DNA of 14,202 bases from a virus. The stretch is taken from UHGV virus genome UHGV-0304018, one strand, 5' to 3'. Shown here one piece after another: positions 722 to 14,124 of the stretch (its first letter is position 1; each line of letters starts with the position of its first letter). The position numbers were made by a program, and so were the translations under genes. The notes under the pieces are model-generated. The model searched no databases, had not been told where the DNA came from, and saw only the letters and a list, made by a program, of their open reading frames with translations.

Positions 722-763
722 ATCTATTGTGTGGTCTATTACTTTATCTATTAGTGTCAAATA

Positions 764-1726: not shown

Positions 1727-1763
1727 AAAAAAGGGAGGTGGGGGAGCGCCTGCCTGGCACCTC
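1727..1763 (-). terminator. Possible weak leftward terminator in the gene-free region
   Basis: 6-bp stem GAGGTG / CACCTC with a 17-nt loop, followed on the minus strand by CC and T6. No matching promoter was found. Confidence 0.3.
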
Positions 1764-2302
1764 AGACGAACATCTGACGGGTATTAATACCGCTAATGGA
1801 TATTTCTGACACCCACACCCAAGACCGCTTTCAGCACACAGCCATACACCGCACAGGATGCAATTGTGATAACAAAAAATGGGGGTGTAATAGGGTAGGT
1901 CATCTTTCATCAAAATCACTTCTACGACGTTCCCAGAGTGATAACAAGAAAACAGGCCTCTAAGATTATCTGTGCCTCGTTTTTAGCTTTTTGTGTGGTT
2001 ACCAGGTGAATAGGAAATGTTAAAAACTGTTCATTTTATGCACAAACTAGTCAGGGTGATACTACAAATTGAGGTGTAAGAAATCCAGCTGCAGATAATC
2101 TTGCAGCCAGATTTTGCAGTTTTTGAGGGTATGTTAAATTTGACAAAAATAGAGAAAAGGCCAATTGAGCTAAGCTATTGATTTTATTAGTATTGCAAAA
2201 AAGGGTTACATCCTCTCTCTTACACTGTCAACAATGCCCAAAACCATTAAATCAATAAATAGGCATTAAATACCCATTAAATAGGGGTTAAATAGGGGAT
2301 AA

Positions 2303-2328
2303 ATAAAAAAGGGGCCGTGATGGCCCCC
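2303..2328 (-). terminator. Rho-independent terminator ending the leftward membrane-protein gene
   Basis: Perfect hairpin ggggcc-gtgat-ggcccc (2311..2327) followed on the minus strand by T6, 17 nt after the stop codon at 2345. Confidence 0.75.
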
Positions 2329-2344
2329 TGGTGGGTTGGTGTGG

Positions 2345-3055: not shown

Positions 3056-3062
3056 AGTGGTA

Positions 3063-3083
3063 CCCCTTTGCGAGAAGTTGATT
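3063..3083 (-). promoter_or_regulatory. Duplicated leader element AAAUCAACUUCUCGCAAA (minus-strand sense) immediately 5' of the ribosome-binding site of 2345..3055
   Basis: 18 nt identical to the element at 3583..3603; a 12-nt core gcgagaagttga recurs at 8086..8097. Confidence 0.5.
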
Positions 3084-3112
3084 TAAGTTAATAACCTGGT
3101 GGACTGTTCACA

Positions 3113-3373
3113 CTATTTATTCTTCTTAAATCTCCCATCCTCCTTTCTTTCGATATTGTGGTAGTCGGCATAGGCTTTTAGCCTTCTGTGCACGGTGGCG
3201 ATCCCCACACCGAAGGTTTTAGCGATGACCTGTCGTGGCGTTCCCTCCTCAACCATCTTGTACATCTGTTCCGCTACATCCATTTGTGCGGCTATCTCCA
3301 TTTGCTTTGCCTTAGCTTTAATTTCAGCTATCAGCTCTTCCCTCAGTCTCTTAATATCTTTAGTTCCCGTCAT
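3113..3373 (-). CDS. Small DNA-binding protein, 86 aa: N-terminal charged helix plus a C-terminal HTH resembling the DNA-binding domain of Hin/Gin-type serine recombinases; no catalytic domain
   Basis: ORF track; GTPRQVIAKTFGVGIATVHRRLKAY resembles the Hin C-terminal HTH as recalled from memory, not searched; start codon overlaps the stop of an upstream small ORF (ATGA). Confidence 0.7.
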   Translation of the reverse strand: MTGTKDIKRLREELIAEIKAKAKQMEIAAQMDVAEQMYKMVEEGTPRQVIAKTFGVGIATVHRRLKAYADYHNIERKEDGRFKKNK

Positions 3374-3450
3374 AAACTCCGCTCAATGATGATTAATACA
3401 AAATCTAAGACTGCCAGACCTATTAAAAATACTTTGCCTCCTTTGCCCAT
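3370..3450 (-). CDS. Possible 26-aa hydrophobic peptide (MGKGGKVFLIGLAVLDFVLIIIERSL), translationally coupled to the HTH gene
   Basis: Hand translation; below the ORF-track length cut-off; single predicted TM segment; stop overlaps the downstream ATG. Confidence 0.25.
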   Translation of the reverse strand: MGKGGKVFLIGLAVLDFVLIIIERSL

Positions 3451-3451
3451 C

Positions 3452-3574
3452 TCACACCTCCACACACAGAGCTAACATCAGGGCTAAAACTCCAACCACC
3501 TCAATTGCCTTAACAATGTGTGGGTGATGAAACCTGGCCTTTTGCCATGCGCTGGCACTGTTCTTGATACCCAT
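3452..3574 (-). CDS. Possible 40-aa peptide with hydrophobic C-terminus (MGIKNSASAWQKARFHHPHIVKAIEVVGVLALMLALCVEV)
   Basis: Hand translation; SD AAGGTGA 5 nt before the ATG; the duplicated leader element lies immediately upstream. Confidence 0.3.
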   Translation of the reverse strand: MGIKNSASAWQKARFHHPHIVKAIEVVGVLALMLALCVEV

Positions 3575-3582
3575 AACTATCA

Positions 3583-3603
3583 CCTTTTGCGAGAAGTTGA
3601 TTT
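3583..3603 (-). promoter_or_regulatory. Second copy of the duplicated leader element, immediately 5' of the ribosome-binding site of the 40-aa ORF
   Basis: Read directly; identical 18-nt core to 3063..3083. Confidence 0.5.
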
Positions 3604-3638
3604 GTTTGCTCGGTTGGGTGCTTTCACTGGCTATGCCA

Positions 3639-3655
3639 GGTGACTTTCAGTCACC
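3639..3655. promoter_or_regulatory. Palindrome GGTGAC-tttca-GTCACC; same half-site as the repeat palindromes
   Basis: Read directly; sits in the divergent control region between the leftward module and the rightward capsid promoter. Confidence 0.4.
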
Positions 3656-3744
3656 CCTTTGGGTGTCTCTATCAATGCTACCCTTCCTTGATTCGAACTA
3701 TAACCGGGTAAATCCCCGGAAAACATTGATATTGATCAAAAGAT

Positions 3745-3775
3745 ATCTATCACGAATGAAAAAGTTATGATAGAT
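3745..3775. promoter_or_regulatory. Inverted repeat ATCTATCA-N15-TGATAGAT; candidate operator
   Basis: Read directly; about 90 bp upstream of the consensus capsid promoter; a further ttgatagagg half-site follows near 3800. Confidence 0.4.
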
Positions 3776-3861
3776 GCGATGAGATGACGTATTGATGGGA
3801 TTGATAGAGGTCTGAAAATACCGTTACTACGCTAATTATTAGAATTTATATAATAAGGGGG

Positions 3862-3890
3862 TTGACAATTTGAGAGAATACTGATATAAT
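3862..3890 (+). promoter_or_regulatory. Perfect consensus sigma70 promoter: TTGACA, 17-nt spacer, TATAAT
   Basis: Read directly: -35 at 3862..3867, -10 at 3885..3890, with an AT-rich upstream stretch. Confidence 0.8.
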
Positions 3891-3896
3891 ATACAT

Positions 3897-4370
3897 ATAC
3901 CGTAAATCAATGGTGAAAGTGATTTGCCGTATTTTCCTCCAAAGTAAAGGCGACCAGGTAGCGGTGCCGCCTTATAAATAACACTACCCTGATCATCGTT
4001 GAGTGGTCGATTAATTCTCCTATTGGGCTAGTTATCCACACAGTTTTCTTTTGCGGGTTTTCTGTGTGGGTAGCTATCCCGAAAGGTATTTCCCCGCTGA
4101 TGTGACCGCAGCCTGAACTGATCCGGGGGAGTGCCTTTCGTGATAGTGCTCTCTAGTAACCGTAACCCATACTGTGAACTATCATCCGACTGTTGTCGGT
4201 TTCCCCATGTGGAATAGCCCCCGCTTGGCTACGGTGCGGGGCTATCTCCCTCTCCTTGTATCAATTTCCCTTTAGATTTCCGGCATAACTTTTCGGCCCG
4301 AGCCTGTCGTGGTTTGAGAGGTTATACCGGAACTCTTTGAGGGGAGTTAATTTAAATCGCAGGTGATCAA
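3897..4370 (+). other. ~470-nt untranslated, hairpin-rich leader between the consensus promoter and the first capsid gene; candidate cis-regulatory RNA
   Basis: No plausible ORF; several strong stems, e.g. ccacacag-N18-ctgtgtgg (4036..4069), ccgac-tgtt-gtcgg (4187..4200), tagcccccgc-N11-gcggggcta, aaggcg-N16-cgcctt. Folds were judged by eye. Confidence 0.5.
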
Positions 4371-4706
4371 ATGAGAGATATGACTATCCGCACACGCGGA
4401 CACATCATTTCATACGCCGCAGATGAGCAATTTTCTATTCGCGACGTTGAAATTAAAAACAAAGTTAAGGCTGAGATTCCGGCTGGCACTGTTGTTGTGG
4501 TGACTGAGGAAGGCGAGGTTGAAACATTCGTTAAAGCAACGCACACCGGTAAAACTCCGCTGCTGGTTGTAGAACGTGCTGAGGTTGGTGACGCTTTTAT
4601 CGTTGTTGCGAACAAAGGTTGCTACATCAATCCGGCCTACGTGGATAAAGAAGGCTTAGCCGCTGTTATTGCTGCCAGCAATGGCGATTTGCGTGTTGCA
4701 CAATAA
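4371..4706 (+). CDS. Putative head decoration protein, 111 aa
   Basis: ORF track; size and position immediately upstream of the major capsid gene, as in lambda D-E; AGGTGA site before the ATG; codon usage typical of a highly expressed gene. Family assignment is by context only. Confidence 0.8.
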   Translation: MRDMTIRTRGHIISYAADEQFSIRDVEIKNKVKAEIPAGTVVVVTEEGEVETFVKATHTGKTPLLVVERAEVGDAFIVVANKGCYINPAYVDKEGLAAVIAASNGDLRVAQ

Positions 4707-4711
4707 GGAGG

Positions 4712-5764
4712 TTGAAGATGGCTAAGAAAGAATTTGAAGTTCGCGATCTGTGTGGTCTGATTAAAGACATCCCGCTGGATAACCAGATTATTTCAGCAAT
4801 GGATATCTTCAACACTACAGCCCTGTGCAATACCTTTAAATTTGAATATGACAAAGTTCGCCAGGTGAAACAAACCGCTTTCGGTCAGTATCCGCGCTAC
4901 GGTGAACAGATGGCTACCATTACCGCAGATGAGCGTGAAACGGGCACGGGTGATATGGCATTCACTGCCGCATCAAGTGCTATTTATCCTTCTGACTGGC
5001 AAGGTATCCGTGTTCCGGGCAAAGATTCCGAAGAGAATTTAGAGTCTGTAACCGCTCGTCGTGTTATTCAACTGGGTGAAGGACTACGCGCGACCCATGA
5101 AGAAGCACGCCAGCTTGCTCTCTTTGAGAACAAAATTATCCTTACCAAGGGTAAAGAACTGAATGTGTGCGAACTGCTGGGCGCACAGCAAACCACTTCA
5201 GAAGTGGATCTAGCTCAAGATATCCTTAAACAGCTGCAGGACCTGGTTGCACTGAGCAAGGTTAAACAGCGTGGTGTTGTTCGCGCTCTGCGTGGTTTCA
5301 CCCTGTTCTGCCGTGCTGAGCTCTTTGCTGCAATTCAGACTGATGAACTGCTCCGTAAAGTGCTGTTGTTCGGCAATCAGAATATTACCGACAAAGGTCT
5401 GATGTTCCCTGAGGATATTCTGCCGGGCTTCCCGACCTTCCGCATTCCGGGCTTAGCTCTGCGTGTGGTGCAAATGGATAGTCTGCCAGAGAATACTGCT
5501 TATCTGGTCCCACAGTTCCAGCCGCATGCGTTAGGCGATATGGTGGGCGTTTATACTCAATTTTTCGGCCCTTGCGCTCGCAACCTGAAGCTTGCAAACG
5601 GCGCTGCACGTGAAGCTTTCATGTATATGGAAGAGTCCAGAGGTAAACGAGAAATCTTCATTGAATCCTCTTATGCTTTCATGAACATGATGCCTGAGGT
5701 TGTGGTTAAAGTGAGTGTTAGTAACTCCGCCGCCGCTGCTCTGGCAAAAGCCAAGGCTAAATAA
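4712..5764 (+). CDS. Putative major capsid protein, 350 aa
   Basis: ORF track; strong AGGAGG site 6 nt before the ATG; size and position after the decoration-like gene; followed by a terminator. Fold not verified. Confidence 0.85.
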   Translation: MKMAKKEFEVRDLCGLIKDIPLDNQIISAMDIFNTTALCNTFKFEYDKVRQVKQTAFGQYPRYGEQMATITADERETGTGDMAFTAASSAIYPSDWQGIRVPGKDSEENLESVTARRVIQLGEGLRATHEEARQLALFENKIILTKGKELNVCELLGAQQTTSEVDLAQDILKQLQDLVALSKVKQRGVVRALRGFTLFCRAELFAAIQTDELLRKVLLFGNQNITDKGLMFPEDILPGFPTFRIPGLALRVVQMDSLPENTAYLVPQFQPHALGDMVGVYTQFFGPCARNLKLANGAAREAFMYMEESRGKREIFIESSYAFMNMMPEVVVKVSVSNSAAAALAKAKAK

Positions 5765-5795
5765 GGTCCTTCTTCGAAGGCCAAATAAAAGCAAA

Positions 5796-5846
5796 GGGAA
5801 GAGGTGAGAGATCGGGGATAGGTCTTTCCCTCTTCCCTTTTTTATT
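5796..5846 (+). terminator. Rho-independent terminator after the capsid gene
   Basis: 9-bp stem gggaagagg / cctcttccc with a 24-nt loop, followed by ttttttatt. Confidence 0.55.
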
Positions 5847-5877
5847 ATCCCCGTCTTAAGTTTTTGAGGTGTCTTTT

Positions 5878-6129
5878 ATGAAAATTGTTTTATACGGCGA
5901 CCGTGACGACGTGCCTTTTGATATTATCCATATCGATGACGAGGATCTGCCGGAATTCCTGCGTATCTCCACATTTGCCGCCTGCTATGACGTTAGCCGC
6001 CAGGCTATGCATAAATACCGTGAATATAATAAATGCACCTGGGCCGAGACTTTCGAACATTTTATTGCACGCAAACAGGCACAGGACCGCAAAAAAGCCC
6101 TGAATGCCCATAATCGTTTTGCAAAATAA
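5878..6129 (+). CDS. Hypothetical small protein, 83 aa, with a possible HTH (STFAACYDVSRQAMHKY)
   Basis: ORF track ORF 5869..6129, start re-placed at the ATG at 5878 with GAGG 8 nt upstream. Confidence 0.65.
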   Translation: MKIVLYGDRDDVPFDIIHIDDEDLPEFLRISTFAACYDVSRQAMHKYREYNKCTWAETFEHFIARKQAQDRKKALNAHNRFAK

Positions 6130-6234
6130 CGCTCTCGGGAAGAGCTATAAGCGATTCTAACGAATAACTGCCCTGTATTTTCTGCAGATTTTAAGCAGGG
6201 CAACGAAAAGATTCATTTTTGAGGCATGTTCAAT

Positions 6235-7002
6235 ATGGCTAATGATGCTCTAACAGCTGCAAAACAAGCTGAGTCGAGATCTCCTGCATTCACTGTTATG
6301 TGTGGGGGATATTCACAAAACAAAAATATAATGGATGGCTTCAACTATACCGATAATGTGGCTATCTTCTTTGACTCTATCTCTGATGTCAGCTATTCGT
6401 TCCCTGTTGAGAAATCGAGCTATGCGGTCGAGGATGGCACCACCATGTCAGACCATGCCGTCATTAAAGATAAATCTGTCAGCTTTACGGGTATTGTTAC
6501 CTCTTCCCCTCATATCATCCGGAAAGAGAACTACATCGACCGGAACACTGATCCAGATAATCCCCGTGAATCTATGCGCCCTGCTGCCGCTGTTCAGGCA
6601 CTTATGGAAATGAGAGACAAGCGCCAGCTGGTTAGCCTGGTTAGTGAAGATGCCGGACTTCTTGAGAACTTCATCATGACGAAATGTGAAGTTAAGCGTA
6701 GCTCTTCCTCTGGCGACTGCATCACTATTGATTGCACTTTTGAAGAATTCCGCACCTTCAAGGTGAAGATGGTCGAAAATGCCGGAGTTTTCACTAACAG
6801 TAAGAAGGTGAATAAAACACAGCAAAAGGGTGCTGTTAACAGTGCTGAGAAGAATAGCAACGTCGGGAACTCAACCAACACCCCATCGGCTAAGCCTAAA
6901 AATTTACAAACTTTGCTCGATGAAAATGATGGGGCTATGAGCACAAAAGACATTTATGATCAGCAAAGGCAAGCCAAATTTGCCAAGGATGCTACAAAAT
7001 GA
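6235..7002 (+). CDS. Hypothetical phage protein, 255 aa, probably virion-associated; function unknown
   Basis: ORF track ORF 6226..7002, start re-placed at the ATG at 6235 (GAGG 10 nt upstream); stop overlaps the next gene's start (ATGA). Confidence 0.75.
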   Translation: MANDALTAAKQAESRSPAFTVMCGGYSQNKNIMDGFNYTDNVAIFFDSISDVSYSFPVEKSSYAVEDGTTMSDHAVIKDKSVSFTGIVTSSPHIIRKENYIDRNTDPDNPRESMRPAAAVQALMEMRDKRQLVSLVSEDAGLLENFIMTKCEVKRSSSSGDCITIDCTFEEFRTFKVKMVENAGVFTNSKKVNKTQQKGAVNSAEKNSNVGNSTNTPSAKPKNLQTLLDENDGAMSTKDIYDQQRQAKFAKDATK

Positions 7003-7457
7003 AAGTCCGGTGCACCATAGACAAGCGCATGATGGATAAGCTGCATAAAGAGCTCTCACAGATGGAAGGTGTAGCGGTTGGCTGGGATGACGGGAAACAC
7101 TATAGCGGCCTGAATTACGCCACACTGGCGGCTATCCACTCTGAGGGGTGGGGTGATTTGCCTAAGCGCTCATTTATGGAGTCTGCCCACGCTGCAATGC
7201 TCTATGAGAGCCTGAGACACACAAAAGCCCTGATTAATGCAATCGTAAAGGGTGGGAGCTCTGAGGCCGTCAGAAAGCGAATTGGCAAGCGATACGCCGA
7301 CATTTTGGAGACTATCCTGATTAGTGGGCAATTCAGCAATAACAAGGTTTCCCCACAATGGGCAAGCTATAAAGGCTTCAATGATGCAATGCGCCACTAT
7401 GATGATTTGATCGGTGCAATCAAATACTGGGTAGACATAGACAAGAAAGGGGCCTGA
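6999..7457 (+). CDS. Putative head-tail joining or tail-completion protein, 152 aa (HK97 gp10-like)
   Basis: ORF track; motif HSEGWGDLPKRSFMES matches the P-x-R-x-F signature I associate with that family; size ~150 aa. Recalled from memory, not searched. Confidence 0.75.
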   Translation: MKVRCTIDKRMMDKLHKELSQMEGVAVGWDDGKHYSGLNYATLAAIHSEGWGDLPKRSFMESAHAAMLYESLRHTKALINAIVKGGSSEAVRKRIGKRYADILETILISGQFSNNKVSPQWASYKGFNDAMRHYDDLIGAIKYWVDIDKKGA

Positions 7458-7470
7458 TAGCCCCTCTCTC
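7449..7470. terminator. Possible bidirectional terminator between convergent genes
   Basis: Hairpin ggggc-ctgata-gcccc overlapping the stop of 6999..7457, with T-rich sequence on both strands. Confidence 0.4.
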
Positions 7471-7475
7471 TGAGA

Positions 7476-7625
7476 TTAGATAAACTGGGATAATTCCCGC
7501 ACAAGCTTTATCTCCTGCCGTTCCTTCTGCTTCTCTTCTAACCATTTCCGGCCTTCTTCAGTCTTGAGAAACTTGCGAGCGTGAATCTTGCGGTTATTTC
7601 GCTTAATGGCATTGGCATTCTTCAT
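7476..7625 (-). CDS. Small very basic protein, 49 aa (MKNANAIKRNNRKIHARKFLKTEEGRKWLEEKQKERQEIKLVRELSQFI)
   Basis: Hand translation; below the ORF-track cut-off; SD AAGGGG before the ATG; candidate promoter just upstream; its start context is nearly identical to that of the membrane-protein gene. Confidence 0.5.
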   Translation of the reverse strand: MKNANAIKRNNRKIHARKFLKTEEGRKWLEEKQKERQEIKLVRELSQFI

Positions 7626-7659
7626 AGTGTCACCCCTTCTTATGACCTGCTACGCCTAC

Positions 7660-7688
7660 ATTATAGCCAAAATCCTGAATTCAGACAA
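7660..7688 (-). promoter_or_regulatory. Candidate leftward promoter: TTGTCT, 17-nt spacer, TATAAT
   Basis: -10 is rc of 7660..7665 and -35 is rc of 7683..7688; about 27 nt upstream of the start of the 49-aa ORF. Confidence 0.5.
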
Positions 7689-8085
7689 TAGAACTCTTTT
7701 TGATGCCGTGTTGGTGGTAAGGAGAAACACTAGCATCATTTAGGGGTTTTCAGGTTTTCATGTAGATCAGCTTTATCAGGTACCTGCTTATATTCCGGTG
7801 CGGTGAAACCGTGTGGGCATCTCTTAGTTTTGGCTTATCACTTATTGCCGGGTAAGAGAGCAGAACCACCAACGTTTGCCTGTTTATCACCTTGGTTAGG
7901 GTGAGGCCGCATCAAGCCCAGTGCTCTACAAGATACTCCAGATCATAGACGCTTATTTTCTCTTAGAGGTCGCGTTAACCTCTGGGATCTGTTTCCACTG
8001 ATGAATATAAAACAAACGGTATGAATGATCAAACGTGAACAGAAAGAGAGTTGACTTTCTCTCTGCAGATGATCACACTTGCCAG

Positions 8086-8097
8086 GCGAGAAGTTGA
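8086..8097. repeat. Third copy of the 12-nt core gcgagaagttga
   Basis: Read directly; lies 3' of the tape-measure gene, overlapping a possible rightward terminator hairpin (agcccc-N19-ggggct followed by ttttatt, 8097..8130). Confidence 0.5.
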
Positions 8098-8142
8098 GCC
8101 CCAAAGGATGACAAATCCCGAGGGGCTTTTATTATCAACCAG

Positions 8143-10284
8143 TTAGAAAAGCTGATTAGCTTCCTGTGTGGCTTTCCAATCCAGCTGATCGCTGACTTCC
8201 TTCTGGATCACCCTGGCAATTCCCCCCTCATCAATGGTTATCTCCCACTTGCCGGAGATCTCACCCTGCGGAACTACACTGATTTGAGTCGGCTGATAGC
8301 CTCCATTCTGAATAGCAATACCACCCGTTGGTGTTGGTCTGGTAATGTAGCGTCCTGCGTCCAGACGATAATCAAGGCCAAGGAAGCTAGAAGCACTATT
8401 AACCATACTGGTTAACCATTCAGGATGTTTAGCTCCTTCCTGCCGCTGATTATCAGGATTCTGCCAGTAGGAATCTAAGCTATTTGCAATGTCAAATCCT
8501 GTCAAAACAATCCCTGCCGGACCTGCAAATCTTCCTCCAAGTCTGCCTGCTTTCCCGATAAAGCCGCCTCTACCTGGTCTGCCTTTGCCTGCTGTGCCTC
8601 CAGTGCTGATATCACCAACACCGACTAAAGCACTAAGCGCCGCTTTAAGTTTCCACAGCATGGAAATAAGGCCGCCAACCATGCCAGCAATGCTTGTTGC
8701 AACCTTCAGGCCTAACAGGGCGGTCACAACCTGGCCAATCTTCTCGCCTGCATCCTGTGCGGTCCAGCCTAACGTCTCACCAATGCCTTTGGCGATCTTC
8801 TTAGTCCACCACCAAGCCCAGTTGACCCAAAAATAAATTTCATGCATTGCCTCGCCTAACATAACTCCGAGAGATTTGGCATCTTCACCTGAGCTACTGA
8901 AAATTGAGGATAAATCTTCAAAGATATAAATAAGGGATTCTGACAGGGTAATGACGCCATCCGCAGGATCCACAACACCCATAAAGGATTGCTTTAGTTT
9001 AAAAAACTGGTTGCTCATTCTCTGCAGTGCCACTTCAGGCTGTTGCATAGATTTAGCAAAAGCGTCAGTTTCTTTTGCAGCACCCCAGATTTTCACTAGA
9101 GAGGGAAGAAGCTTGTCCAGGGTGATTTTGCCATCTGCCATGGCTTTATCGAATTCCTGGGCACTCTTGATGATTCCGGCATCAATAGCGGCCTGTTGAA
9201 AATCCTGTTGTGAGCCTGCAAAGGCTTCTGACAGCTGGCCACGCAGCTCTTCCGCAGCTACTCTTCCTTTTGAAGCCATTTGTTGGACCGCAACAAGCGC
9301 CCTGTTCTGTTGCTCGCCAGTAGCACCCACTGAGCGGCCTTTAATCGCCATAGCCTCAAAAAGAGCCTGCTTATCAGATTCCTTCATGGTGGGAGTAGCG
9401 GCAGCAAAACGCATATAGCCACCCTCCATCTCACGCTGATCCATCCCGTAGGTGTTGGCTGTGTTCTCGATAAAAGCCATCTGCTGGTCAGTCTTGGCTT
9501 TATCATCCTTGTTCTGAGCAAGCAAACCATAATAGGCTGAGTTATGGTCAGATTGAGCGCTCATAGCACCACTAACAGCTCTCTGAATACCCCATCCTGC
9601 AGCGGTCAGGCCAATGGCTATCTTGCCTAAAGCACTGTTAAGCTTGCCGATATTGTTATGCACCTTGCTCGCACCTGCTGCCAGTTTATCTAGCTTGCTT
9701 TGAAAGGTGGTGGCATCTCTAGAGGCCATCTTCATTTCAGCTCTGAGTCGGGCCATTTTCTGATTATAGGTCTGCAGGTTAATAGCCCCTTTAGCATAAT
9801 CAGCATTAACTCTCTGGATTCTGCTTTGGAACTGAGCAACCAGGGATCCATCAAACATGCTGCTGATTCGTGCACTGTTGGCCCCTACACGTGCTTTTCT
9901 GTGCTGAACATCTCCAACACTACGATCTAACAGTTTTTGTTGTCTGGCGGCTTCTCTGGCTTGTTGTTGGTAGAACTTGCGCATAGAGTTAAGTTCGGCA
10001 TTGTTGCCCCCGGTCAGACGGCTGACAGCCTGAGCACGTTGTTTCTTCTGTGCTTCCTGTTGTTTCCTCTGAGCTCTGGCTATCTGCTCTTCCACCTTAG
10101 CGCGTGTTCTTTGTGTTCTGAGCACAGCCTGATTAGATTTAAAATCAGCTTTAGCTATATCGTCGGTAGCTTTCTTCCAGGATTTTTTATAATCCTCAAG
10201 CCGTTTAACTTCTTTTCGCCAGGAGGATTTATCAGAGTCCCAGTAAATAACGTTTGTTAGTCTGGCTACTTCCTTCATTGCCAT
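8143..10284 (-). CDS. Tail tape measure protein, 713 aa
   Basis: ORF track; charged coiled-coil-like N-terminal third, central region with the conserved core recalled for tape-measure proteins (GRVAAEELRGQLSEAF), and hydrophobic and Gly-rich segments near the C-terminus; SD GAGG before the ATG. Confidence 0.85.
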   Translation of the reverse strand: MAMKEVARLTNVIYWDSDKSSWRKEVKRLEDYKKSWKKATDDIAKADFKSNQAVLRTQRTRAKVEEQIARAQRKQQEAQKKQRAQAVSRLTGGNNAELNSMRKFYQQQAREAARQQKLLDRSVGDVQHRKARVGANSARISSMFDGSLVAQFQSRIQRVNADYAKGAINLQTYNQKMARLRAEMKMASRDATTFQSKLDKLAAGASKVHNNIGKLNSALGKIAIGLTAAGWGIQRAVSGAMSAQSDHNSAYYGLLAQNKDDKAKTDQQMAFIENTANTYGMDQREMEGGYMRFAAATPTMKESDKQALFEAMAIKGRSVGATGEQQNRALVAVQQMASKGRVAAEELRGQLSEAFAGSQQDFQQAAIDAGIIKSAQEFDKAMADGKITLDKLLPSLVKIWGAAKETDAFAKSMQQPEVALQRMSNQFFKLKQSFMGVVDPADGVITLSESLIYIFEDLSSIFSSSGEDAKSLGVMLGEAMHEIYFWVNWAWWWTKKIAKGIGETLGWTAQDAGEKIGQVVTALLGLKVATSIAGMVGGLISMLWKLKAALSALVGVGDISTGGTAGKGRPGRGGFIGKAGRLGGRFAGPAGIVLTGFDIANSLDSYWQNPDNQRQEGAKHPEWLTSMVNSASSFLGLDYRLDAGRYITRPTPTGGIAIQNGGYQPTQISVVPQGEISGKWEITIDEGGIARVIQKEVSDQLDWKATQEANQLF

Positions 10285-10285
10285 T

Positions 10286-10522
10286 TTATACCTCGCCCTG
10301 TCTTAAAGATTTTGATAATGAAATAGCCCTTTTCAGGGCCTCTTTATCAATATTATATTTCTCCGCCAGCTCTTCGATTGAGAGGCCTTCTGTGTGGGAG
10401 CTACTTTTAATAATGGTGGACCCCTCTTTCGCTGCCTCTGGCAGGTGACCTATTGTCACCCCTTCGGGCGTGTCTTCGGAGTCCTTAACCAGTTTTTGAT
10501 AAATCTTTTCGTAGATATTCAT
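10286..10522 (-). CDS. Hypothetical protein, 78 aa, immediately upstream of the tape-measure gene
   Basis: ORF track; SD AAGG 8 nt before the ATG; stop is 1 nt from the tape-measure ATG. A tail-assembly-chaperone role is inferred from position only. Confidence 0.7.
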   Translation of the reverse strand: MNIYEKIYQKLVKDSEDTPEGVTIGHLPEAAKEGSTIIKSSSHTEGLSIEELAEKYNIDKEALKRAISLSKSLRQGEV

Positions 10523-10523
10523 A

Positions 10524-10913
10524 TCATTTGCCTTTGCGTCTTAGTGGACACTTATCGCCAATAGTCCACACAAAAATATAATGGCGCTTGCTTTCAGCTT
10601 TAGGATTTAATAATTCTTTATGCAAATATCCGGCTGACAGCATTTTATCGACCAGGTTTTTCACTCTTTGCCCTTCCTCAAATGTTTGTGCTTTGAAATA
10701 GAGATTTGGAAAGTTTTGGCCTGTATACTTTCCATCTTCATTTAAGCGGGTGCATACCCAACGACATAAATCATCGTCGTTAAGATCACTAACGTGTGGT
10801 TTATCATCGCTGCTAAATAACGCCTGTTTAAAATGGGAGTAACTAAACTCCCCTTCTTCCAGGAAATCACCCTCTTCGAATTCAACTATCATTTCTTCAA
10901 TATTCATAGGCAT
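10524..10913 (-). CDS. Hypothetical protein, 129 aa, acidic N-terminus; possible tail assembly chaperone by position
   Basis: ORF track; compact gene spacing. Confidence 0.75.
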   Translation of the reverse strand: MPMNIEEMIVEFEEGDFLEEGEFSYSHFKQALFSSDDKPHVSDLNDDDLCRWVCTRLNEDGKYTGQNFPNLYFKAQTFEEGQRVKNLVDKMLSAGYLHKELLNPKAESKRHYIFVWTIGDKCPLRRKGK

Positions 10914-10967
10914 ATCCTCTCATTGATGCACCCCCCAAAAAATGGGGAGTGCTTATTTATCAATAGC

Positions 10968-11411
10968 TTAATCAAGATTAACCAGTTTGAGAGGTTTGAC
11001 AGCTTGGAGCATGGTCTGCATCATTCCTACGCTTATTTCAAAGAGATCTGCCATGTTCTGAAGGCTTGCCCCTTCTGCCTCAATCATTGATTTGGATAAG
11101 GCAGCAATCACAAAGCCATCCTGGGCGCTGTTCCACATGCTGATAAGAGGATCATCACCGTGTTGGCGCATAAGGTCCTGAATCATCCACAGCCTACATG
11201 CCATAACCACCAAATCGACATAGAAAACATCACCATTAGCGGACTTGCATTCAGCAAAAGCGTGGTGTCTGTGTTTTAAGAAGTGCTCTTTGTCACGGGT
11301 AAATGCCAGGGTGTTGGTAAACTTGCCATCTAAAAGATCCTGGCGAACTTTTGAATCTTCAGCGTCGAAAGCTTTGATTACCTGGGATAATAATTTAGCG
11401 ATTTGAGACAT
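10968..11411 (-). CDS. Hypothetical protein, 147 aa
   Basis: ORF track; AGGA 7 nt before the ATG. Confidence 0.75.
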   Translation of the reverse strand: MSQIAKLLSQVIKAFDAEDSKVRQDLLDGKFTNTLAFTRDKEHFLKHRHHAFAECKSANGDVFYVDLVVMACRLWMIQDLMRQHGDDPLISMWNSAQDGFVIAALSKSMIEAEGASLQNMADLFEISVGMMQTMLQAVKPLKLVNLD

Positions 11412-11484
11412 TTGGAATTCCTTAAATTAGAGCCCCGGAAGGGGTTAAAGTGAGTCGAAAATAAATAAATCGAAGAGATAAAAC

Positions 11485-11973
11485 TTAGGCTTTCTGGGCC
11501 ATTGCTTTCTGGACTTTATTTCTATGGCGGCGGTAGATGAATATAAATTCGCGATAAGCACGACTACCGGGCTTAGGCAAACGTTGATTAAGCTCCTTAC
11601 GTGGCAGGATTTCACTCAACAAGCCCCAGATATGAAAGCAGGTTACTTTTAATTCTTTTGCTATCTCTTCAATATTCATCCCACAATTCCACATTAAAAG
11701 AGATTTGCGGCGGCGATCTTCGAAGACATTTCTATCTCTATCTATTTCGTTGTAGACACTGAGGGGAACTCGACACCGTGGATTCCAGGACTCATTATAT
11801 AGTTTTTGGACTTTCTCAAGTTTAACGCCTGTATATTCCGCCACGAATTCAGGGGTAAAGCCCTCGACTAATAAGTGTTTAGCCTGTCGTGTTGGTTGAT
11901 CATCACTGGGGAGATATTTCTGCAGTGCTACCAGTTTTTCAAATTGGGAATCAGAAAGATCAGATTTGAACAT
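11485..11973 (-). CDS. DNA-binding protein, 162 aa, with a sigma70 region-4-like HTH; candidate late-gene activator or small-terminase-like protein
   Basis: ORF track; RRKSLLMWNCGMNIEEIAKELKVT follows the region-4 pattern (R-x-hydrophobic-L-x4-G-x3-EEIA-x2-L-x-V); GGAGA 7 nt before the ATG. Confidence 0.75.
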   Translation of the reverse strand: MFKSDLSDSQFEKLVALQKYLPSDDQPTRQAKHLLVEGFTPEFVAEYTGVKLEKVQKLYNESWNPRCRVPLSVYNEIDRDRNVFEDRRRKSLLMWNCGMNIEEIAKELKVTCFHIWGLLSEILPRKELNQRLPKPGSRAYREFIFIYRRHRNKVQKAMAQKA

Positions 11974-12071
11974 GATTAATTCTCCGAACGTTTAAAAGAT
12001 CAGGGCAATCAATCTAGTTCTAGTGCTTAGTTTGTTTATTTAGTTTGTTTGGGGATAACAGGGGATATTAA

Positions 12072-12218
12072 TTAATAAGGGATGTCAGAATCATTTTCTT
12101 CATCTGCTGGATCTTCAGCTAACCAACCACAATATTCTTCCCAATATGAAAAATGTTGTGATAGTTCATCTTCAAAATATTTTTCCTTTTCCAGGTAATA
12201 ATCAAGATCGCCATACAT
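12072..12218 (-). CDS. Small strongly acidic protein, 48 aa (MYGDLDYYLEKEKYFEDELSQHFSYWEEYCGWLAEDPADEENDSDIPY); candidate DNA mimic or anti-defence protein
   Basis: Hand translation; below the ORF-track cut-off; AGGA 8 nt before the ATG; 16 acidic versus 2 basic residues. Confidence 0.5.
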   Translation of the reverse strand: MYGDLDYYLEKEKYFEDELSQHFSYWEEYCGWLAEDPADEENDSDIPY

Positions 12219-12257
12219 TTTAAATTTCCTTTAGAATACTGTAAAAAATAAGAATGT

Positions 12258-13121
12258 TTATTTTGTAATGGTTAATTCGCCTTTTACAAGCTTGCAGTTG
12301 TTCCACAATCTTTCTTTCGGGGCATCATAGCCATGACTAATATAATCGATGATAATTGTTTTACCTCTTTTAGCTACATGTTGAGCCACCTTAAGGGCCT
12401 GTTCTGTTAAATGCCAATAATCATCTTCTTTCCAGATTCTACCCTCAACGGTGCCTTTAATTTTATCCATCACCTCCGGCCCGTAAAATGCATCTCGCAA
12501 TTCAGAGAGTTTAATGCTCTTCCGATCCTTAAATGTTGCCTGAATCCCTTTGTATTTGGCGTTCATCTCATCACTTGTCAGAATCGGATAACCGTGCTCA
12601 TCTTTCTCACGTTTGCCAGCGTCTCTAAAGCGCTCTCTGCGCTCGTTCTTAGGTTGGGTAGGCAATTGCACCACCTCGGCCTTTTTAGCTTGCTGTGTGG
12701 GTTGTTTTGGGGCTTCCTGTTGATTATCGGGGGCCTCTTTACTAGATCCCACACTGTCGGAGGTTTTAATACCCTGCTCATCACACATCTTGCCAAGCTG
12801 ATCAGGGGTAATTAGCAGTTTGTAATGATTAGATTTGCCTTTACTTTTAACTATTGAAATAAGCCCGGCATTTTCTAGAGATTTAATCGAGTTAATAACT
12901 GTCGGTCTTGAAACATCATAATCGTCTGCTAATCTCTGTTCAGAGATAAATATTTCACAACCTGCAGCATTAAAACTTGCCATCTCACCGTAAATTGTCA
13001 TTTCCAACAAGTTTAAGTGAAATCTTTCTTTATTGGTTGTAGTTTTTGCAATCGGATTTTTAAAAATGTATTTGATGAAACGTTTAAAAAGGGGAGTAAA
13101 ATTTTCCCCGTAATTACTTGC
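12258..13121 (-). CDS. Winged-helix DNA-binding protein, 287 aa (N-terminal wHTH, low-complexity linker, C-terminal domain); replication-initiator-like or antirepressor-like
   Basis: ORF track ORF 12258..13181, start re-placed at the internal ATG at 13121 (GGGGGA site 4-5 nt upstream), which removes the overlap with 13138..13353; wHTH-like segment ISEQRLADDYDVSRPTVINSIKSLENAGLISIV. Confidence 0.75.
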   Translation of the reverse strand, partial: ASNYGENFTPLFKRFIKYIFKNPIAKTTTNKERFHLNLLEMTIYGEMASFNAAGCEIFISEQRLADDYDVSRPTVINSIKSLENAGLISIVKSKGKSNHYKLLITPDQLGKMCDEQGIKTSDSVGSSKEAPDNQQEAPKQPTQQAKKAEVVQLPTQPKNERRERFRDAGKREKDEHGYPILTSDEMNAKYKGIQATFKDRKSIKLSELRDAFYGPEVMDKIKGTVEGRIWKEDDYWHLTEQALKVAQHVAKRGKTIIIDYISHGYDAPKERLWNNCKLVKGELTITK

Positions 13122-13137
13122 CATAATTCCCCCATAA

Positions 13138-13353
13138 TTATTTATTAATGTTATTGGTGTATTTAGCCAGTTCCCGCTCAAGGCGAATGCAATTTAGTTT
13201 TAAAATTGCTTCTTCAATGTGTGGATATTCTCCTTTATGTTTACGAATGAATGCATAAACGGAAGTTTTGCGGAAGTTCCCCTTAAGTACGTTCTCGACG
13301 ATTTCGTCAGTAGTCCAGTTTACCAGCTGGCTGATCGGTCCGGTTTTAGCCAT
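13138..13353 (-). CDS. Small hypothetical protein, 71 aa; possible regulator
   Basis: ORF track; perfect AGGAGG site 8 nt before the ATG. Confidence 0.75.
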   Translation of the reverse strand: MAKTGPISQLVNWTTDEIVENVLKGNFRKTSVYAFIRKHKGEYPHIEEAILKLNCIRLERELAKYTNNINK

Positions 13354-13486
13354 AGTATAAGCCTCCTGTTAGCTCACTAACCTGTGCGATATATGATTAA
13401 AAAGAAACGGGAACTTAAGACAAGCCCCCGCCAGTCTACTAAAGGAAATTCACTATGATGAGAATTACCCTATGCTTTATATTTTA

Positions 13487-13636
13487 TCAGACATTCGTCA
13501 AATTGTCAACAATCTTTTTGTATTTATCTATCATTTTTTCTTCAAGATTGTCGATTGCAGTTACTCCGGCTATGTAGGCAACACCGCACCACAGTACAGC
13601 CAGGTTGATGATCGCTATTGCATCAGTAATTTCCAC
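13487..13636 (-). CDS. Possible small single-TM protein, 49 aa, GTG start; its start lies inside the conserved 110-nt repeat block
   Basis: Hand translation (VEITDAIAIINLAVLWCGVAYIAGVTAIDNLEEKMIDKYKKIVDNLTNV); GGAGG 5 nt before the GTG; competes with a probably spurious plus-strand ORF 13472..13672. Confidence 0.35.
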   Translation of the reverse strand: MEITDAIAIINLAVLWCGVAYIAGVTAIDNLEEKMIDKYKKIVDNLTNV

Positions 13637-13671
13637 ATTGACCTCCGGATCTGTTTCTCCCCCTATTTATA

Positions 13672-13700
13672 ATCTTATCATATTGTCAACCAATTGTCAA
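13672..13700 (-). promoter_or_regulatory. Candidate leftward promoter inside the conserved 110-nt repeat block (copy B)
   Basis: Same TTGACA / 17-nt / TAAGAT arrangement as copy A, upstream of the small ORF 13487..13636, which has a GGAGG ribosome-binding site. Confidence 0.35.
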
Positions 13701-13914
13701 TGAGAATTATTATCATTTAGGTGTGCTATAGGTGCCATAGCCTGCACAGCAGACACAAGCAAGCCCACAAGGGAGGGCACTTTTTGCCTTAAGCGCTCTA
13801 AAATCGATTCTAACGCGATTTAGAGGTCAGGTAATGCAATTGCACTACTCACACTAGTTAATGCAGCCAGAAGGCCATTTAGGGGGCTTATTTTCGATTT
13901 ATGAGTGTATCCTT

Positions 13915-13933
13915 TATATATGTGTGCGTGCAC
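13915..13933. repeat. 19-nt alternating purine-pyrimidine tract (tatatatgtgtgcgtgcac) in repeat copy B
   Basis: Read directly; followed by the palindrome cccgcgcggg. Confidence 0.8.
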
Positions 13934-14089
13934 CCGCGCGGGAGACTCTTTGCTGCCTCCTTCCGGCGCTGGCAAGCTTTCGGCAGCGGTCCACATGTGG
14001 GCCTCATGCTGACGCATTCGCCGGACCACACACAGACCCGAAGGGCTTAGCCATGGGCTAAGGTGCCGTAGGCACTCCCACACACAATT

Positions 14090-14124
14090 GGGTGACGTGT
14101 CATGTATGGAATACATTGTCACCC
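14090..14124. promoter_or_regulatory. Same GGGTGAC-N21-GTCACCC palindrome (copy B)
   Basis: Identical to 507..541. Confidence 0.5.

What the first reader, a model, noticed from the sequence alone, without database searches (positions are those of the whole stretch)
8143..13353. Tape-measure gene in a leftward operon with regulator-like genes, with no tail tube, distal tail or fibre genes
The 713-aa tape-measure protein is the last gene of an operon whose upstream genes are small proteins (71, 287, 48, 162, 147, 129, 78 aa) that look regulatory or DNA-binding, and it converges on the capsid operon from the opposite strand. A tape-measure gene without adjacent tail-tube or baseplate genes is unusual and could mean a satellite that sets tail length on a helper tail, or a rearranged remnant.
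Basis: partly seen in the sequence, partly recalled or inferred. Interest (0 to 1): 0.6.

Follow-up and report, generated by a model that had tools for sequence, protein, structure and literature searches.

The report
Tail-ruler gene on a satellite plasmid
The tape-measure gene is real and sits on a 13.5-kb E. coli plasmid that carries diverged copies of just four virion genes of rV5-type lytic phages (capsid, tail ruler, tail-tube initiator, one neck-cluster protein), so it is most likely a plasmid-borne phage satellite that supplies part of its own tail, although no experiment has tested this.

Summary
The 713-aa ORF is a genuine tape measure protein (TMP): Pfam TMP_3 scores above its cutoff, and it aligns end to end with Vequintavirinae TMPs. 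The claim of no distal-tail gene is wrong. The converging operon encodes a Dit-like tail-tube initiator (45% identical to the rV5-type protein) and a neck-cluster protein (44%), after a capsid gene.

No genes lie beyond the window. It spans more than one complete 13,531-bp circle of a plasmid family found in 7 of 5,426 complete E. coli genomes, never on a chromosome, and in human-gut metagenomes. All genes are intact and under purifying selection. Relatives form four deep clades of elements of about 13-15 or 19-20 kb. TMP plus tube initiator is the shared core of every sampled member.

Best reading (confidence about 0.55): a plasmid-borne satellite of Vequintavirus-type lytic myophages. It would put its own TMP and initiator into helper tails, as Vibrio PLEs do, and probably redirect capsid size with its own capsid protein.

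Nothing shows packaging. I found no terminase, portal or pac site, and no tail chaperone could be identified. This is a new variant of two recently described kinds: tail-remodelling satellites and satellite-plasmids.

The parts
8143..10284 (-). Tape measure protein, 713 aa. The N-terminal 190 aa and the last ~65 aa are conserved across the plasmid family and align with the ends of the Vequintavirus TMP. Residues ~456-650 (hydrophobic, Gly-rich) are a swapped allele.
10286..10522 (-). 78-aa acidic protein, translationally coupled to the TMP gene (1-nt gap). It occupies the same position and has about the same size as the 82-aa gene upstream of the rV5-type TMP. It is a possible tail-assembly chaperone, not shown.
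   Evidence: no profile similarity
10524..10913 (-). 129-aa acidic protein of unknown function. It is coupled to the 78-aa gene. No counterpart was found in the clade B locus L008.
10968..11411 (-). 147-aa protein of unknown function. It is conserved in clade A, and a distant relative in clade B (L008) is suggested only by visual inspection of an alignment.
   Evidence: AF2 model too poor to use
11485..11973 (-). 162-aa basic HTH protein (sigma-70 region 4 / HTH_23-like unit at residues ~80-135). It is conserved in clades A and B. It is a DNA-binding regulator or packaging-specificity candidate.
12072..12218 (-). 48-aa acidic protein of unknown function, nearly invariant in clade A.
12258..13181 (-). 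Replication initiator (winged helix, lambda-O / DnaD-like N-terminal domain). It is 287 aa from the ATG at 13121. It is exchanged between family members (43-99% identity).
13138..13353 (-). 71-aa basic protein, first gene of the leftward operon, function unknown.
13481..13509 (-). Near-consensus sigma-70 promoter (11/12, extended -10) for the leftward operon. A hairpin with a T-run at 13432-13406 lies in the leader.
   Evidence: (I1)
3862..3890 (+). Consensus sigma-70 promoter (12/12, extended -10) for the capsid/initiator operon. It shares spacer sequence with the leftward promoter.
   Evidence: (I1)
3920..4156 (+). Ultra-conserved core of the strongly folded ~470-nt leader of the capsid operon.
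4371..4706 (+). 111-aa protein directly upstream of the capsid gene. It has counterparts at 46% identity in clade B and, at weak similarity, at the same position in clade C. It is positionally equivalent to the rV5-type head decoration gene, but homology is not significant.
4712..5764 (+). Major capsid protein, HK97 fold, lambda gpE type. It is full length and about 24% identical to the Vequintavirus MCP.
5869..6129 (+). 86-aa protein of unknown function between the capsid and initiator genes, conserved in clades A and B.
6226..7002 (+). Dit-like tail-tube initiator (first ring of the tube on the baseplate hub).
6999..7457 (+). 152-aa homolog (44%) of Vequintavirus bas54_0012, the gene between the adaptor and head-completion genes. 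PHROG labels it 'tail completion or Neck1'. It is absent from the solved phiTE and phi92 virion models.
753..863 (.). Four 22-23-bp iterons, the probable origin for the initiator.
   Evidence: (D3)
593..14123 (.). One complete 13,531-bp circular unit of the plasmid.

Best explanation
The TMP gene belongs to a 13.5-kb autonomously replicating E. coli plasmid that acts as a satellite of Vequintavirus-type (rV5-like) lytic myophages.

Shown:
- The plasmid has its own iteron-type replicon.
- It has two strong sigma-70 promoters driving two convergent operons.
- It carries diverged but full-length, selectively maintained homologs of exactly four helper morphogenesis proteins: major capsid protein, TMP, tail-tube initiator and a neck-cluster protein. 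It has no other virion gene.

Inferred:
- When a helper phage infects the cell, the plasmid's TMP and tube initiator replace the helper's on helper-made baseplate hubs.
- Helper tube and sheath then polymerise around the shorter ruler (713 aa against 778 aa). This would give chimeric tails about 8-10 nm shorter, as demonstrated for Vibrio PLEs.
- The plasmid's capsid protein, with the 111-aa protein upstream of it, uses helper portal, scaffold and protease to build small heads sized for about 13-15 kb.
- The swapped central-C-terminal TMP segment reflects an arms race, either with helper or host factors that act on the TMP or with membrane factors met during DNA entry.
For: 1. TMP identity and end-to-end collinearity with Vequintavirinae TMPs. 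The N-terminal motif MRKFYQQQAREA and the C-terminal ~60 aa are retained.
2. Only four window proteins have homologs in the phage. These are TMP 25%, initiator 45%, neck-cluster protein 44% and MCP 24%. Nothing else matched about 126 kb of the 136-kb phage MaxBurger genome.
3. The window is a whole circle of 13,531 bp. Close relatives are complete circular plasmids of 13.2-13.7 kb in 7 of 5,426 E. coli genomes, with no chromosomal copy, and PLSDB types them as non-mobilizable. The identical TMP is on record in 51 blocks of the public collection, including human-gut metagenomes.
4. All genes are intact. dN/dS is 0.03-0.11 for MCP, initiator and neck protein and 0.30 for the TMP.
5. Homologs of the initiator fall into four clades of small elements (contigs 13.3-15.2 kb, or 19-20 kb), plus one clade of 92-138-kb Vequintavirinae contigs. 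All four sampled elements keep TMP plus initiator.
6. Element TMPs are always shorter (682-755 aa) than the phage TMPs (778-811 aa).
7. There is an experimental precedent. PLEs of V. cholerae encode TAC, TMP and baseplate hub that are 20/20/41% identical to those of ICP1, and they assemble chimeric tails 10 nm shorter (Nature 2026, PMC12987554). Satellite-plasmids have been proposed in Vibrio (PMC13230959).
Against: - No terminase subunit, portal, protease, scaffold or recognisable pac/cos site is present.
- The non-coding regions do not match phage DNA.
- The small elements were not found among 2.9 million IMG/VR viral contigs, although the search patterns fit their proteins.
- No tail-assembly chaperone could be recognised. 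hhalign against the rV5-type genes upstream of the TMP gave nothing, and the AF2 models were unusable.
- Both operons have near-consensus host promoters, so expression may not depend on a helper.
- Identity to Vequintavirus proteins is only 24-45%, so the true helper, if any, may be an unsequenced relative.
- No co-occurrence with a helper, particle or transduction data exist.
Confidence: 0.55

Rival explanations
1. Defence plasmid without transfer. The diverged capsid, TMP, initiator and neck proteins act as dominant-negative 'poison subunits'. They co-assemble with an infecting rV5-type phage's proteins and abort virion assembly, protecting the clonal population. The plasmid itself is never packaged.
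For: - The homologs are those that nucleate assembly (initiator, ruler, capsid subunit), and they keep the docking ends.
- Strong host-type promoters could give expression before infection.
- There are no packaging genes or sites.
- Interference with assembly is a known defence strategy: Tai (PMC11364771), and Rta of PLE11, which targets the helper TMP.
- A variable cargo slot next to the 86-aa HTH gene carries membrane proteins or T5orf172-type nucleases in relatives.
Against: - A decoy needs only a fragment. Here four full-length proteins, plus accessory genes, are kept under strong purifying selection across deep clades.
- Element size is narrowly conserved (13.2-15.2 kb) despite different cargo. 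This suggests a packaging limit.
- In PLEs, interference and self-transfer coexist, so this rival is not exclusive of the best explanation.
Confidence: 0.22
2. Satellite of a different, still unsequenced helper. The mechanism is the same as the best explanation, but the helper is not a Vequintavirus. It would be another ~140-kb myophage lineage, or a phage-plasmid, whose proteins are closer to the plasmid's.
For: - Identities to Vequintavirus are modest, at 24-45%.
- The best database MCP hits are a Serratia phage and a Vibrio phage of ~140 kb, not the E. coli genus.
- In the initiator tree the phage clade is only one of five clades.
Against: - The closest phage relatives of the initiator, the TMP and the neck protein in 50,697 phage records and in IMG/VR are all Vequintavirinae, mostly E. 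coli phages.
- No closer phage-sized contig appeared among 5.8 billion proteins.
- Divergence of 20-41% from the true helper is normal for PLEs.
Confidence: 0.12
3. Cryptic plasmid carrying a decaying or domesticated fragment of a phage or phage-plasmid, with no present interaction with any phage.
For: - The element has no complete morphogenesis pathway.
- About 3 kb of the element is non-coding.
Against: - There are no pseudogenes, and all ORFs are intact in seven plasmids from four continents.
- dN/dS is well below 1 for every gene.
- The same gene order (initiator operon ending in the TMP, convergent with the capsid-initiator-neck operon) holds in clade B at about 50% protein identity.
- The lineage is as deep as the phage subfamily itself.
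Confidence: 0.06
4. The 713-aa protein is not a tape measure but an unrelated coiled-coil or membrane protein.
For: TMPs are compositionally biased, and similarity searches on them can be misleading.
Against: - The Pfam hit is above the curated cutoff.
- Alignment is full length, with conserved motifs at both ends, to TMPs whose position in the tail lumen is solved (phiTE 9cuy_W).
- The expected architecture is present: a basic helical N-terminus, the TMP_3 core, then a hydrophobic and Gly-rich segment.
Confidence: 0.02

Closest known systems
PLEs of Vibrio cholerae (satellites of the lytic myophage ICP1) and their TAC-TMP-BhuB partial tail pathway (bioRxiv 10.1101/2025.01.29.635557; Nature 2026, PMC12987554)
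   Same: - A small element parasitising (there shown, here inferred) a virulent myophage.
- It encodes its own shorter TMP plus a baseplate-proximal tail protein.
- Divergence from the helper is very similar: 20% and 41% there, 25% and 45% here.
- TMP alleles fall into discrete, highly divergent groups.
   Different: - PLEs are chromosomal islands with a large serine integrase. This element is a plasmid with no recombinase.
- PLEs remodel stolen helper capsid protein with the scaffold TcaP. This element has its own capsid protein.
- The PLE chaperone is identified, and here none is.
- There is no sequence relationship between the two.
- PLE function is experimentally shown, and here nothing is.
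PISP and cf-PISP 'satellite-plasmids' of Vibrio crassostreae (Nat Commun 2026, PMC13230959)
   Same: - Small circular extrachromosomal elements (11.1 and 15.8 kb) with their own replication genes and a capsid protein (PF03864 type in PISP), proposed as satellites.
- They lack an integrase.
   Different: - The Vibrio elements lack tail genes. They carry parA, a protease and a small terminase (PISP), or a full head module with terminases (cf-PISP).
- This element has none of those, but has TMP, tube initiator and a neck-cluster protein.
- The authors found relatives only in Vibrio. This family is in E. coli.
Capsid-forming PICIs (cfPICI)
   Same: A satellite that encodes its own major capsid protein and relies on helper tails.
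   Different: cfPICIs are integrated. They encode portal, protease, connectors and terminase, and they take complete helper tails. None of these genes is present here, and the tail is (by inference) partly self-encoded.
EPIPs of Mycolicibacterium aichiense (bioRxiv, PMC12822802)
   Same: Small satellites reported to encode an MCP and a TMP, with altered tail length.
   Different: - They infect an actinobacterial host and use a siphophage helper.
- They carry a serine integrase, small terminase, adaptor, stopper and scaffold.
- Their tails are longer, not shorter.
- They are unrelated in sequence.
Vequintavirinae tail module (rV5, MaxBurger/Bas54, phiTE; structure in PMC11972413)
   Same: TMP, tube initiator, the bas54_0012-like protein and the MCP are homologous and collinear with the phage proteins.
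   Different: - The plasmid proteins form separate deep clades.
- The plasmid TMP is 60-100 aa shorter.
- The genes are rearranged into two convergent operons and fused to a plasmid replicon.
- About 220 other phage genes are absent.

Membership tests
Phage tail tape measure protein (Pfam PF20155 TMP_3; phrog_5255) | Profile match above the curated threshold | tested here: met
   53.7 bits against a cutoff of 41. phrog_5255 gives E 1.9e-139. phiTE TMP 9cuy_W gives E 4e-21.
Phage tail tape measure protein (Pfam PF20155 TMP_3; phrog_5255) | Full-length collinearity with a TMP whose location in the tail lumen is known, including both termini | tested here: met
   Residues 4-710 align with the 778-aa MaxBurger TMP. 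Identity is 43% over residues 61-135 and 30% over the last 63 aa.
Phage tail tape measure protein (Pfam PF20155 TMP_3; phrog_5255) | Encoded next to tail-assembly chaperone genes and followed by distal-tail genes | tested here: inconclusive
   Two small coupled acidic ORFs precede the gene, as in rV5-type phages. No homology to chaperones was found. The initiator gene is nearby but on the other strand.
Phage tail tape measure protein (Pfam PF20155 TMP_3; phrog_5255) | Determines tail length in a virion | not testable with these tools
   This needs electron microscopy and proteomics of particles.
Dit-like tail-tube initiator (PF21821) | Profile match above threshold, and similarity to a solved tube initiator | tested here: met
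   88.9 bits against a cutoff of 24.2. The family profile against phiTE tube initiator 9cuy_K gives E 4.8e-58.
PLE (phage-inducible chromosomal island-like element) | Chromosomal integration by a large serine recombinase in Vibrio cholerae | tested here: not met
   There is no recombinase in the window. All 12 places are on plasmids and none on chromosomes, in E. coli.
PLE (phage-inducible chromosomal island-like element) | Own TMP plus a baseplate-proximal protein that are diverged homologs of the helper's | tested here: met
PLE (phage-inducible chromosomal island-like element) | Helper-dependent transduction and helper inhibition | not testable with these tools
   Experimental test required.
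cfPICI | Integrase, portal, head protease, connectors and terminase genes alongside the MCP; no tail genes | tested here: not met
   Only the MCP is present. TMP and initiator are present instead.
Satellite-plasmid (PISP / cf-PISP) | Small circular extrachromosomal replicon with its own replication initiator and no integrase | tested here: met
Satellite-plasmid (PISP / cf-PISP) | Capsid protein of satellite type (PF03864 in PISP) | tested here: met
   phrog_29 hit. Relatives' MCPs hit PF03864. Clustering with satellite rather than phage MCPs was not tested.
Satellite-plasmid (PISP / cf-PISP) | parA partition gene, head protease and small terminase; absence of tail genes | tested here: not met
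   None of these was found, and tail genes are present.
Phage-plasmid | Complete set of virion, packaging and lysis genes on a plasmid replicon | tested here: not met
   The whole 13,531-bp circle holds only four morphogenesis homologs.
P4-like satellite | Integrase, alpha primase-helicase, Sid/Psu/Delta | tested here: not met
   No matches in Pfam, PHROGs or NCBIfam.
Tail assembly chaperone (gpG/gpGT-like) | Sequence or fold similarity to known chaperones; programmed frameshift between two ORFs upstream of the TMP gene | tested here: inconclusive
   There were no family hits. hhalign against the rV5-type genes 0017/0018 gave probabilities below 1%. No slippery site was seen at the junctions. 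The AF2 model of the 147-aa protein had pLDDT 52.

The most novel reading that the evidence does not exclude
A widespread but undescribed family of ~13-15-kb (and 19-20-kb) E. coli gut plasmids are hyperparasites of virulent Vequintavirus-type phages. They are maintained as plasmids. On infection they build a small capsid from their own capsid protein, and a chimeric, shortened contractile tail from their own tape measure and tube initiator on helper parts. This would be the first tail-remodelling satellite-plasmid, the first satellite known for this phage group, and the first outside Vibrio to combine both traits.
Probability: 0.45. Interest if true: 0.8.

Novelty: new variant of a known kind. 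Interest (0 to 1): 0.62.

Why it matters
- Satellites were long thought to steal complete tails. Tail remodelling was first shown for Vibrio PLEs only recently (preprint 2025, Nature 2026). Plasmid-borne satellites of tailed phages were first proposed in a 2025 preprint (published 2026), in Vibrio only.
- This family would unite both traits in E. coli from the human and animal gut.
- The phage group involved, Vequintavirus, is common in sewage isolates and, to my knowledge, is used in therapeutic cocktails. If so, the plasmids could affect phage-therapy efficacy and move DNA between strains.
- The family offers a compact natural system for asking how a TMP is chosen over a competing one during tail assembly. 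It carries a ruler, the initiator at its C-terminal end and a neck-cluster protein of unknown role. Natural alleles also swap the central-C-terminal TMP segment.
- It flags an unstudied conserved Vequintavirinae protein (bas54_0012-like) as probably important for assembly.

Tried and rejected
- Nucleotide search of the whole window against 50,697 phage records found no match.
- The gene-free 2.3 kb was searched against phages and gave one 50-nt chance-level hit. The whole window run locally with blastn against three MaxBurger loci (about 126 kb) matched only inside the initiator and TMP genes. So no shared pac/cos or promoter block was found.
- Rfam at gathering score and at E<=1 gave nothing, and there are no tRNAs.
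- NCBIfam and PADLOC on the small proteins gave nothing meaningful.
- I looked for chaperone and decoration homology by HMM and hhalign against alignments of rV5-type genes 0017, 0018, 0008, 0013, 0014 and 0021. Only the TMP and the neck-cluster protein matched. The 111-aa protein against the decoration protein gave E 0.017 and probability 2.7%, which is not significant.
- Two homolog searches returned only close relatives. The AlphaFold models (pLDDT 44.7 and 52.1) were too poor for fold searches, which I therefore did not run.
- PDB profile searches for the neck-cluster protein gave only spurious repeat-protein hits.
- The genome-contig scan (one genome per species) found no relative.
- I tried to trace co-occurrence of element and phage in the same sequencing sample, and it was uninformative.
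- I considered a diversity-generating or shufflon explanation for the two versions of window 1-671 and 13626-14202. I rejected it in favour of two alleles joined in the source contig, because the second copy is 100% identical to an independent metagenome contig over a full unit.

Full report
**What is in the window**

The 713-aa product (8143-10284, minus strand) is a tape measure protein (TMP) by every test I could apply.
- Pfam TMP_3 gives 53.7 bits against a curated cutoff of 41.
- PHROG 5255 'tail length tape measure protein' gives E 1.9e-139.
- The TMP chain of the solved phage phiTE virion (9cuy_W) gives E 4e-21.

The protein aligns from residue 4 to 710 with the 778-aa TMP of Escherichia phage MaxBurger, a Vequintavirus. 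It has the usual layout: a basic helical N-terminus, the TMP_3 core, a hydrophobic stretch around residues 515-557 and a glycine-rich segment.

The two genes before it (129 and 78 aa) are each separated from the next gene by a single base.

**Where the observation goes wrong**

The converging plus-strand operon is not only 'capsid'. It reads as follows:
- a 111-aa protein;
- a major capsid protein (phrog_29, E 1.7e-20);
- an 86-aa protein;
- a Dit-like tail protein (PF21821, 88.9 bits against a cutoff of 24.2);
- an overlapping 152-aa protein (phrog_222 'tail completion or Neck1', E 1.6e-29).

The Dit-like protein is 45% identical to the protein annotated as 'tail tube initiator' in Vequintavirus phages. 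There it is encoded directly after the TMP gene. In the phiTE structure it forms the first ring of the tube on the hub. So a distal-tail gene is present, 1.1 kb from the TMP gene.

The upstream 'regulators' are a mixed set.
- The 287/307-aa protein is a winged-helix replication initiator.
- The 162-aa protein belongs to a small family whose remote members are arrays of sigma-70-region-4/HTH_23-type units.
- The rest have no recognisable family.

**The replicon**

The window is more than one turn of a circle.
- Positions 593-14202 are 100% identical to a metagenome contig that carries the unit twice, with a period of 13,531 bp.
- Positions 1-592 are a divergent allele of 13626-14123.

There is no outside.

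Close relatives are complete circular plasmids of 13.2-13.7 kb.
- They occur in 7 of 5,426 complete E. coli genomes: bovine, feral pig, chicken and human isolates from the USA, Chile, China and South Africa, plus a human isolate (JNE25-003).
- In total I found nine family records: the seven above, of which three also appear among PLSDB's five, and two further PLSDB plasmids.
- They are never chromosomal.
- One record is a three-unit concatemer.
- All are typed as non-mobilizable.

The identical TMP sequence is on record in 51 blocks of the public assembly collection, including a human-gut metagenome.

Four 22-23-bp iterons at 753-863 probably serve the initiator. There is no integrase, partition gene, relaxase, terminase, portal, protease, sheath, tube, hub, fibre or lysis gene.

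**Relationship to phages**

Only four of the plasmid's proteins have homologs in the Vequintavirus MaxBurger. Nothing else matched in about 126 kb of its 136-kb genome.

| Plasmid protein | Identity to the MaxBurger homolog |
|---|---|
| TMP | 25% |
| Tube initiator | 45% |
| 152-aa protein (homolog of bas54_0012) | 44% |
| Capsid protein | 24% |

I mapped the neighbouring phage genes onto the solved phiTE and phi92 virions.
- bas54_0011 is the adaptor, 0013 the head-completion protein and 0014 the tail terminator.
- The 0012 family lies between them. It matches no solved chain and no Pfam family. Its role is unknown beyond the PHROG label.

The TMP keeps both ends of the phage protein. The N-terminal motif MRKFYQQQAREA is almost identical, and the last ~60 residues align. 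In phiTE the TMP N-terminus lies in the head-proximal tube lumen next to the tail terminator, and the C-terminus is three-fold symmetric, which I infer sits in the hub.

**It is not a remnant**

Across seven plasmids every gene is intact and dN/dS is well below 1.

| Gene | dN/dS |
|---|---|
| 152-aa protein | 0.03 |
| Tube initiator | 0.09 |
| Capsid protein | 0.11 |
| TMP | 0.30 |

Homologs of the initiator among 5.8 billion proteins fall into five clades. Four sit on contigs of 13.3-15.2 kb or 19-20 kb. One sits on Vequintavirinae contigs of 92-138 kb. IMG/VR holds only the large phages.

Sampled members of all four element clades keep a TMP and the initiator.
- Clade B keeps the whole architecture at about 50% protein identity.
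- Clade C lacks the 152-aa gene.
- Clade D places initiator, TMP and the 152-aa homolog in a row and has no recognisable capsid gene.

The TMP-initiator pair is thus the hallmark of the superfamily. Element TMPs are 682-755 aa and phage TMPs are 778-811 aa.

**Mosaicism of the TMP**

Within clade A the first 190 residues are nearly identical (dS about 0.1). Residues 191-455 and 651-713 are old alleles (dS 0.5-0.85). Residues 456-650 are saturated at both synonymous and non-synonymous sites against five of the six plasmids compared. That points to allele replacement by recombination, not point-mutation drift. At least three allele types exist. The replication initiator is likewise exchanged (43-99% identity).

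**Mechanism**

The best-supported model is a plasmid-borne satellite with a PLE-like partial tail pathway.

In V. cholerae, PLEs encode a chaperone, a TMP and a baseplate hub protein that are 20, 20 and 41% identical to those of the lytic myophage ICP1. PLE virions contain the PLE TMP and hub protein instead of the phage's. Their tails are 10 nm shorter, in line with the 95-residue difference. Deleting the PLE TMP gene cuts transduction by 96-99.9% (published in Nature 2026).

The present plasmid shows the same pattern of which proteins are duplicated and how far they have diverged. From the 65-residue difference I infer tails about 8-10 nm shorter. This uses 1.26 A per residue from phiTE (811 aa, ~1020 A) or 1.6 A per residue from the PLE paper.

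The full-length capsid protein suggests size redirection. By my own rough geometric scaling from phiTE (T=13, ~142 kb), a T=3 shell would hold about 16 kb and a T=4 shell about 24 kb, before any correction for shell thickness. This is compatible with the 13-15-kb and 19-20-kb size classes, but it is inference only.

The following steps are not shown:
- helper dependence;
- packaging (no terminase subunit or pac site found);
- a chaperone;
- induction.

Both operons start from near-consensus sigma-70 promoters that share spacer sequence. This suggests a common repressor, but it would also allow constitutive expression.

**Rivals**

- A pure defence plasmid using poison subunits cannot be excluded (0.22). 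It may coexist with satellite behaviour, as in PLE11.
- The helper could be an unsequenced relative rather than Vequintavirus proper (0.12).
- A decaying fragment (0.06) and a non-TMP protein (0.02) are disfavoured by the data above.

**Comparison with the literature**

- A 2025 review stated that only one plasmid, an inovirus satellite, had been shown to be a phage satellite.
- A 2026 paper proposed 'satellite-plasmids' (PISP, cf-PISP) in Vibrio crassostreae. It said they lack tail genes and reported relatives only within Vibrio.
- A December 2025 preprint on mycobacterial EPIPs noted that TMPs were otherwise unreported in satellites apart from PLEs.
- Full-text searches for Vequintavirinae with satellites, and for the accession numbers and protein ids of these plasmids, found no description of this family.

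The element fails the defining features of PLE (integrase, chromosomal location), cfPICI, P4, PISP (parA, protease, small terminase, no tail genes) and phage-plasmids. It works like a combination of PLE and PISP. I therefore rate it a new variant of a known kind, with moderate-to-high interest because the evidence is entirely comparative.

Noticed in passing
window, 22 sites (e.g. 495, 541, 594, 728, 1124, 1314, 1473, 1992, 3460, 3517, 4036, 4063, 4749, 6299, 8165, 10391, 10566, 12694, 13218): The 7-mer CCACACA (usually CCCACACA) occurs 22 times against 1.6 expected, and none of 200 shuffles exceeded 6. It is the top over-represented 7-mer in clade A plasmids (1.0-1.4 per kb) and is also enriched in distant clades. 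It is at background level in Vequintavirinae DNA. Most copies share one polarity around the circle regardless of gene direction, with a switch next to the iterons. It may be a polar cis signal or a dispersed operator.
   Followed up: partly
window 3897-4370, core 3920-4156 (+): The ~470-nt leader between the consensus promoter and the capsid operon folds far better than shuffles (-172.9 kcal/mol, z = -6.7). Its 237-nt core is 99.0% identical among seven plasmids, while four-fold degenerate sites of neighbouring genes are 89-92% identical. One hairpin shows a compensatory change (CCGAC/GTCGG to CCAAC/GTTGG). It is a candidate regulatory RNA, with no Rfam match.
   Followed up: partly
window 1-671 versus 13626-14202: The two ends of the window are two mosaic versions of one region. 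Blocks are identical or 90-95% identical (1-126, 494-542, 593-671) and are separated by unrelated segments. The second version belongs to the exact 13,531-bp unit. The first looks like an allele from a co-resident variant or a chimeric assembly.
   Followed up: yes
window 3848-3893 (+) and 13478-13523 (-): The two operons start from near-perfect sigma-70 promoters (12/12 and 11/12, both with an extended -10). Their spacers and flanks are 74% alike, which suggests one shared operator. A hairpin with a T-run (13432-13406) lies between the leftward promoter and its first gene.
   Followed up: no
window 7476-7997; L009 10389-10952: A 49-aa basic protein gene and ~350 nt of adjacent non-coding DNA lie between the convergent operons. 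The cassette is 72-82% identical at DNA level, in inverted orientation, to a distant element whose initiator is only 48% identical. It is absent from the closest plasmids, so it behaves as a mobile cassette of unknown function.
   Followed up: partly
window 864-2344 plus 13354-14123: About 3 kb of the 13.5-kb circle has no credible ORF, and every clade keeps a comparable 2-3-kb gene-free stretch (L009 1-2256, L030 7226-10573). It is not conserved in sequence between clades and has no Rfam hit. Apart from the iterons its role is unexplained.
   Followed up: partly
window 2345-3055 (-) and equivalents in L001-L009: The 236-aa protein with N-terminal membrane helices occupies a variable cargo slot next to the conserved 86-aa HTH gene. 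Other plasmids carry unrelated 173-195-aa proteins there. Clades B and C carry T5orf172/DUF723 nuclease-like genes, and clade C also a resolvase. This is reminiscent of the defence hotspots of other satellites.
   Followed up: no
L003 7655-8119 (phage MaxBurger bas54_0012) and window 6999-7457: This protein family is conserved across Vequintavirinae and encoded between the adaptor and head-completion genes. It has no match to any chain of the solved phiTE or phi92 virions, nor to Pfam. It is therefore either an unmodelled minor component or an assembly factor.
   Followed up: partly
L010 and L011 (19-kb contigs, E. coli): A fourth clade of larger elements places the initiator, a 755-aa TMP and the 152-aa homolog consecutively on one strand. 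It carries an HNH gene and a lambda Kil-like gene and has no recognisable capsid gene.
   Followed up: no
L002 (NZ_CP043822, 39.6 kb) and L028 (26.7-kb metagenome contig): The plasmid is recorded as a head-to-tail trimer in one finished genome and as about two units in a metagenome contig. These could be assembly artefacts of a circle or real multimers, which would matter for headful packaging.
   Followed up: no
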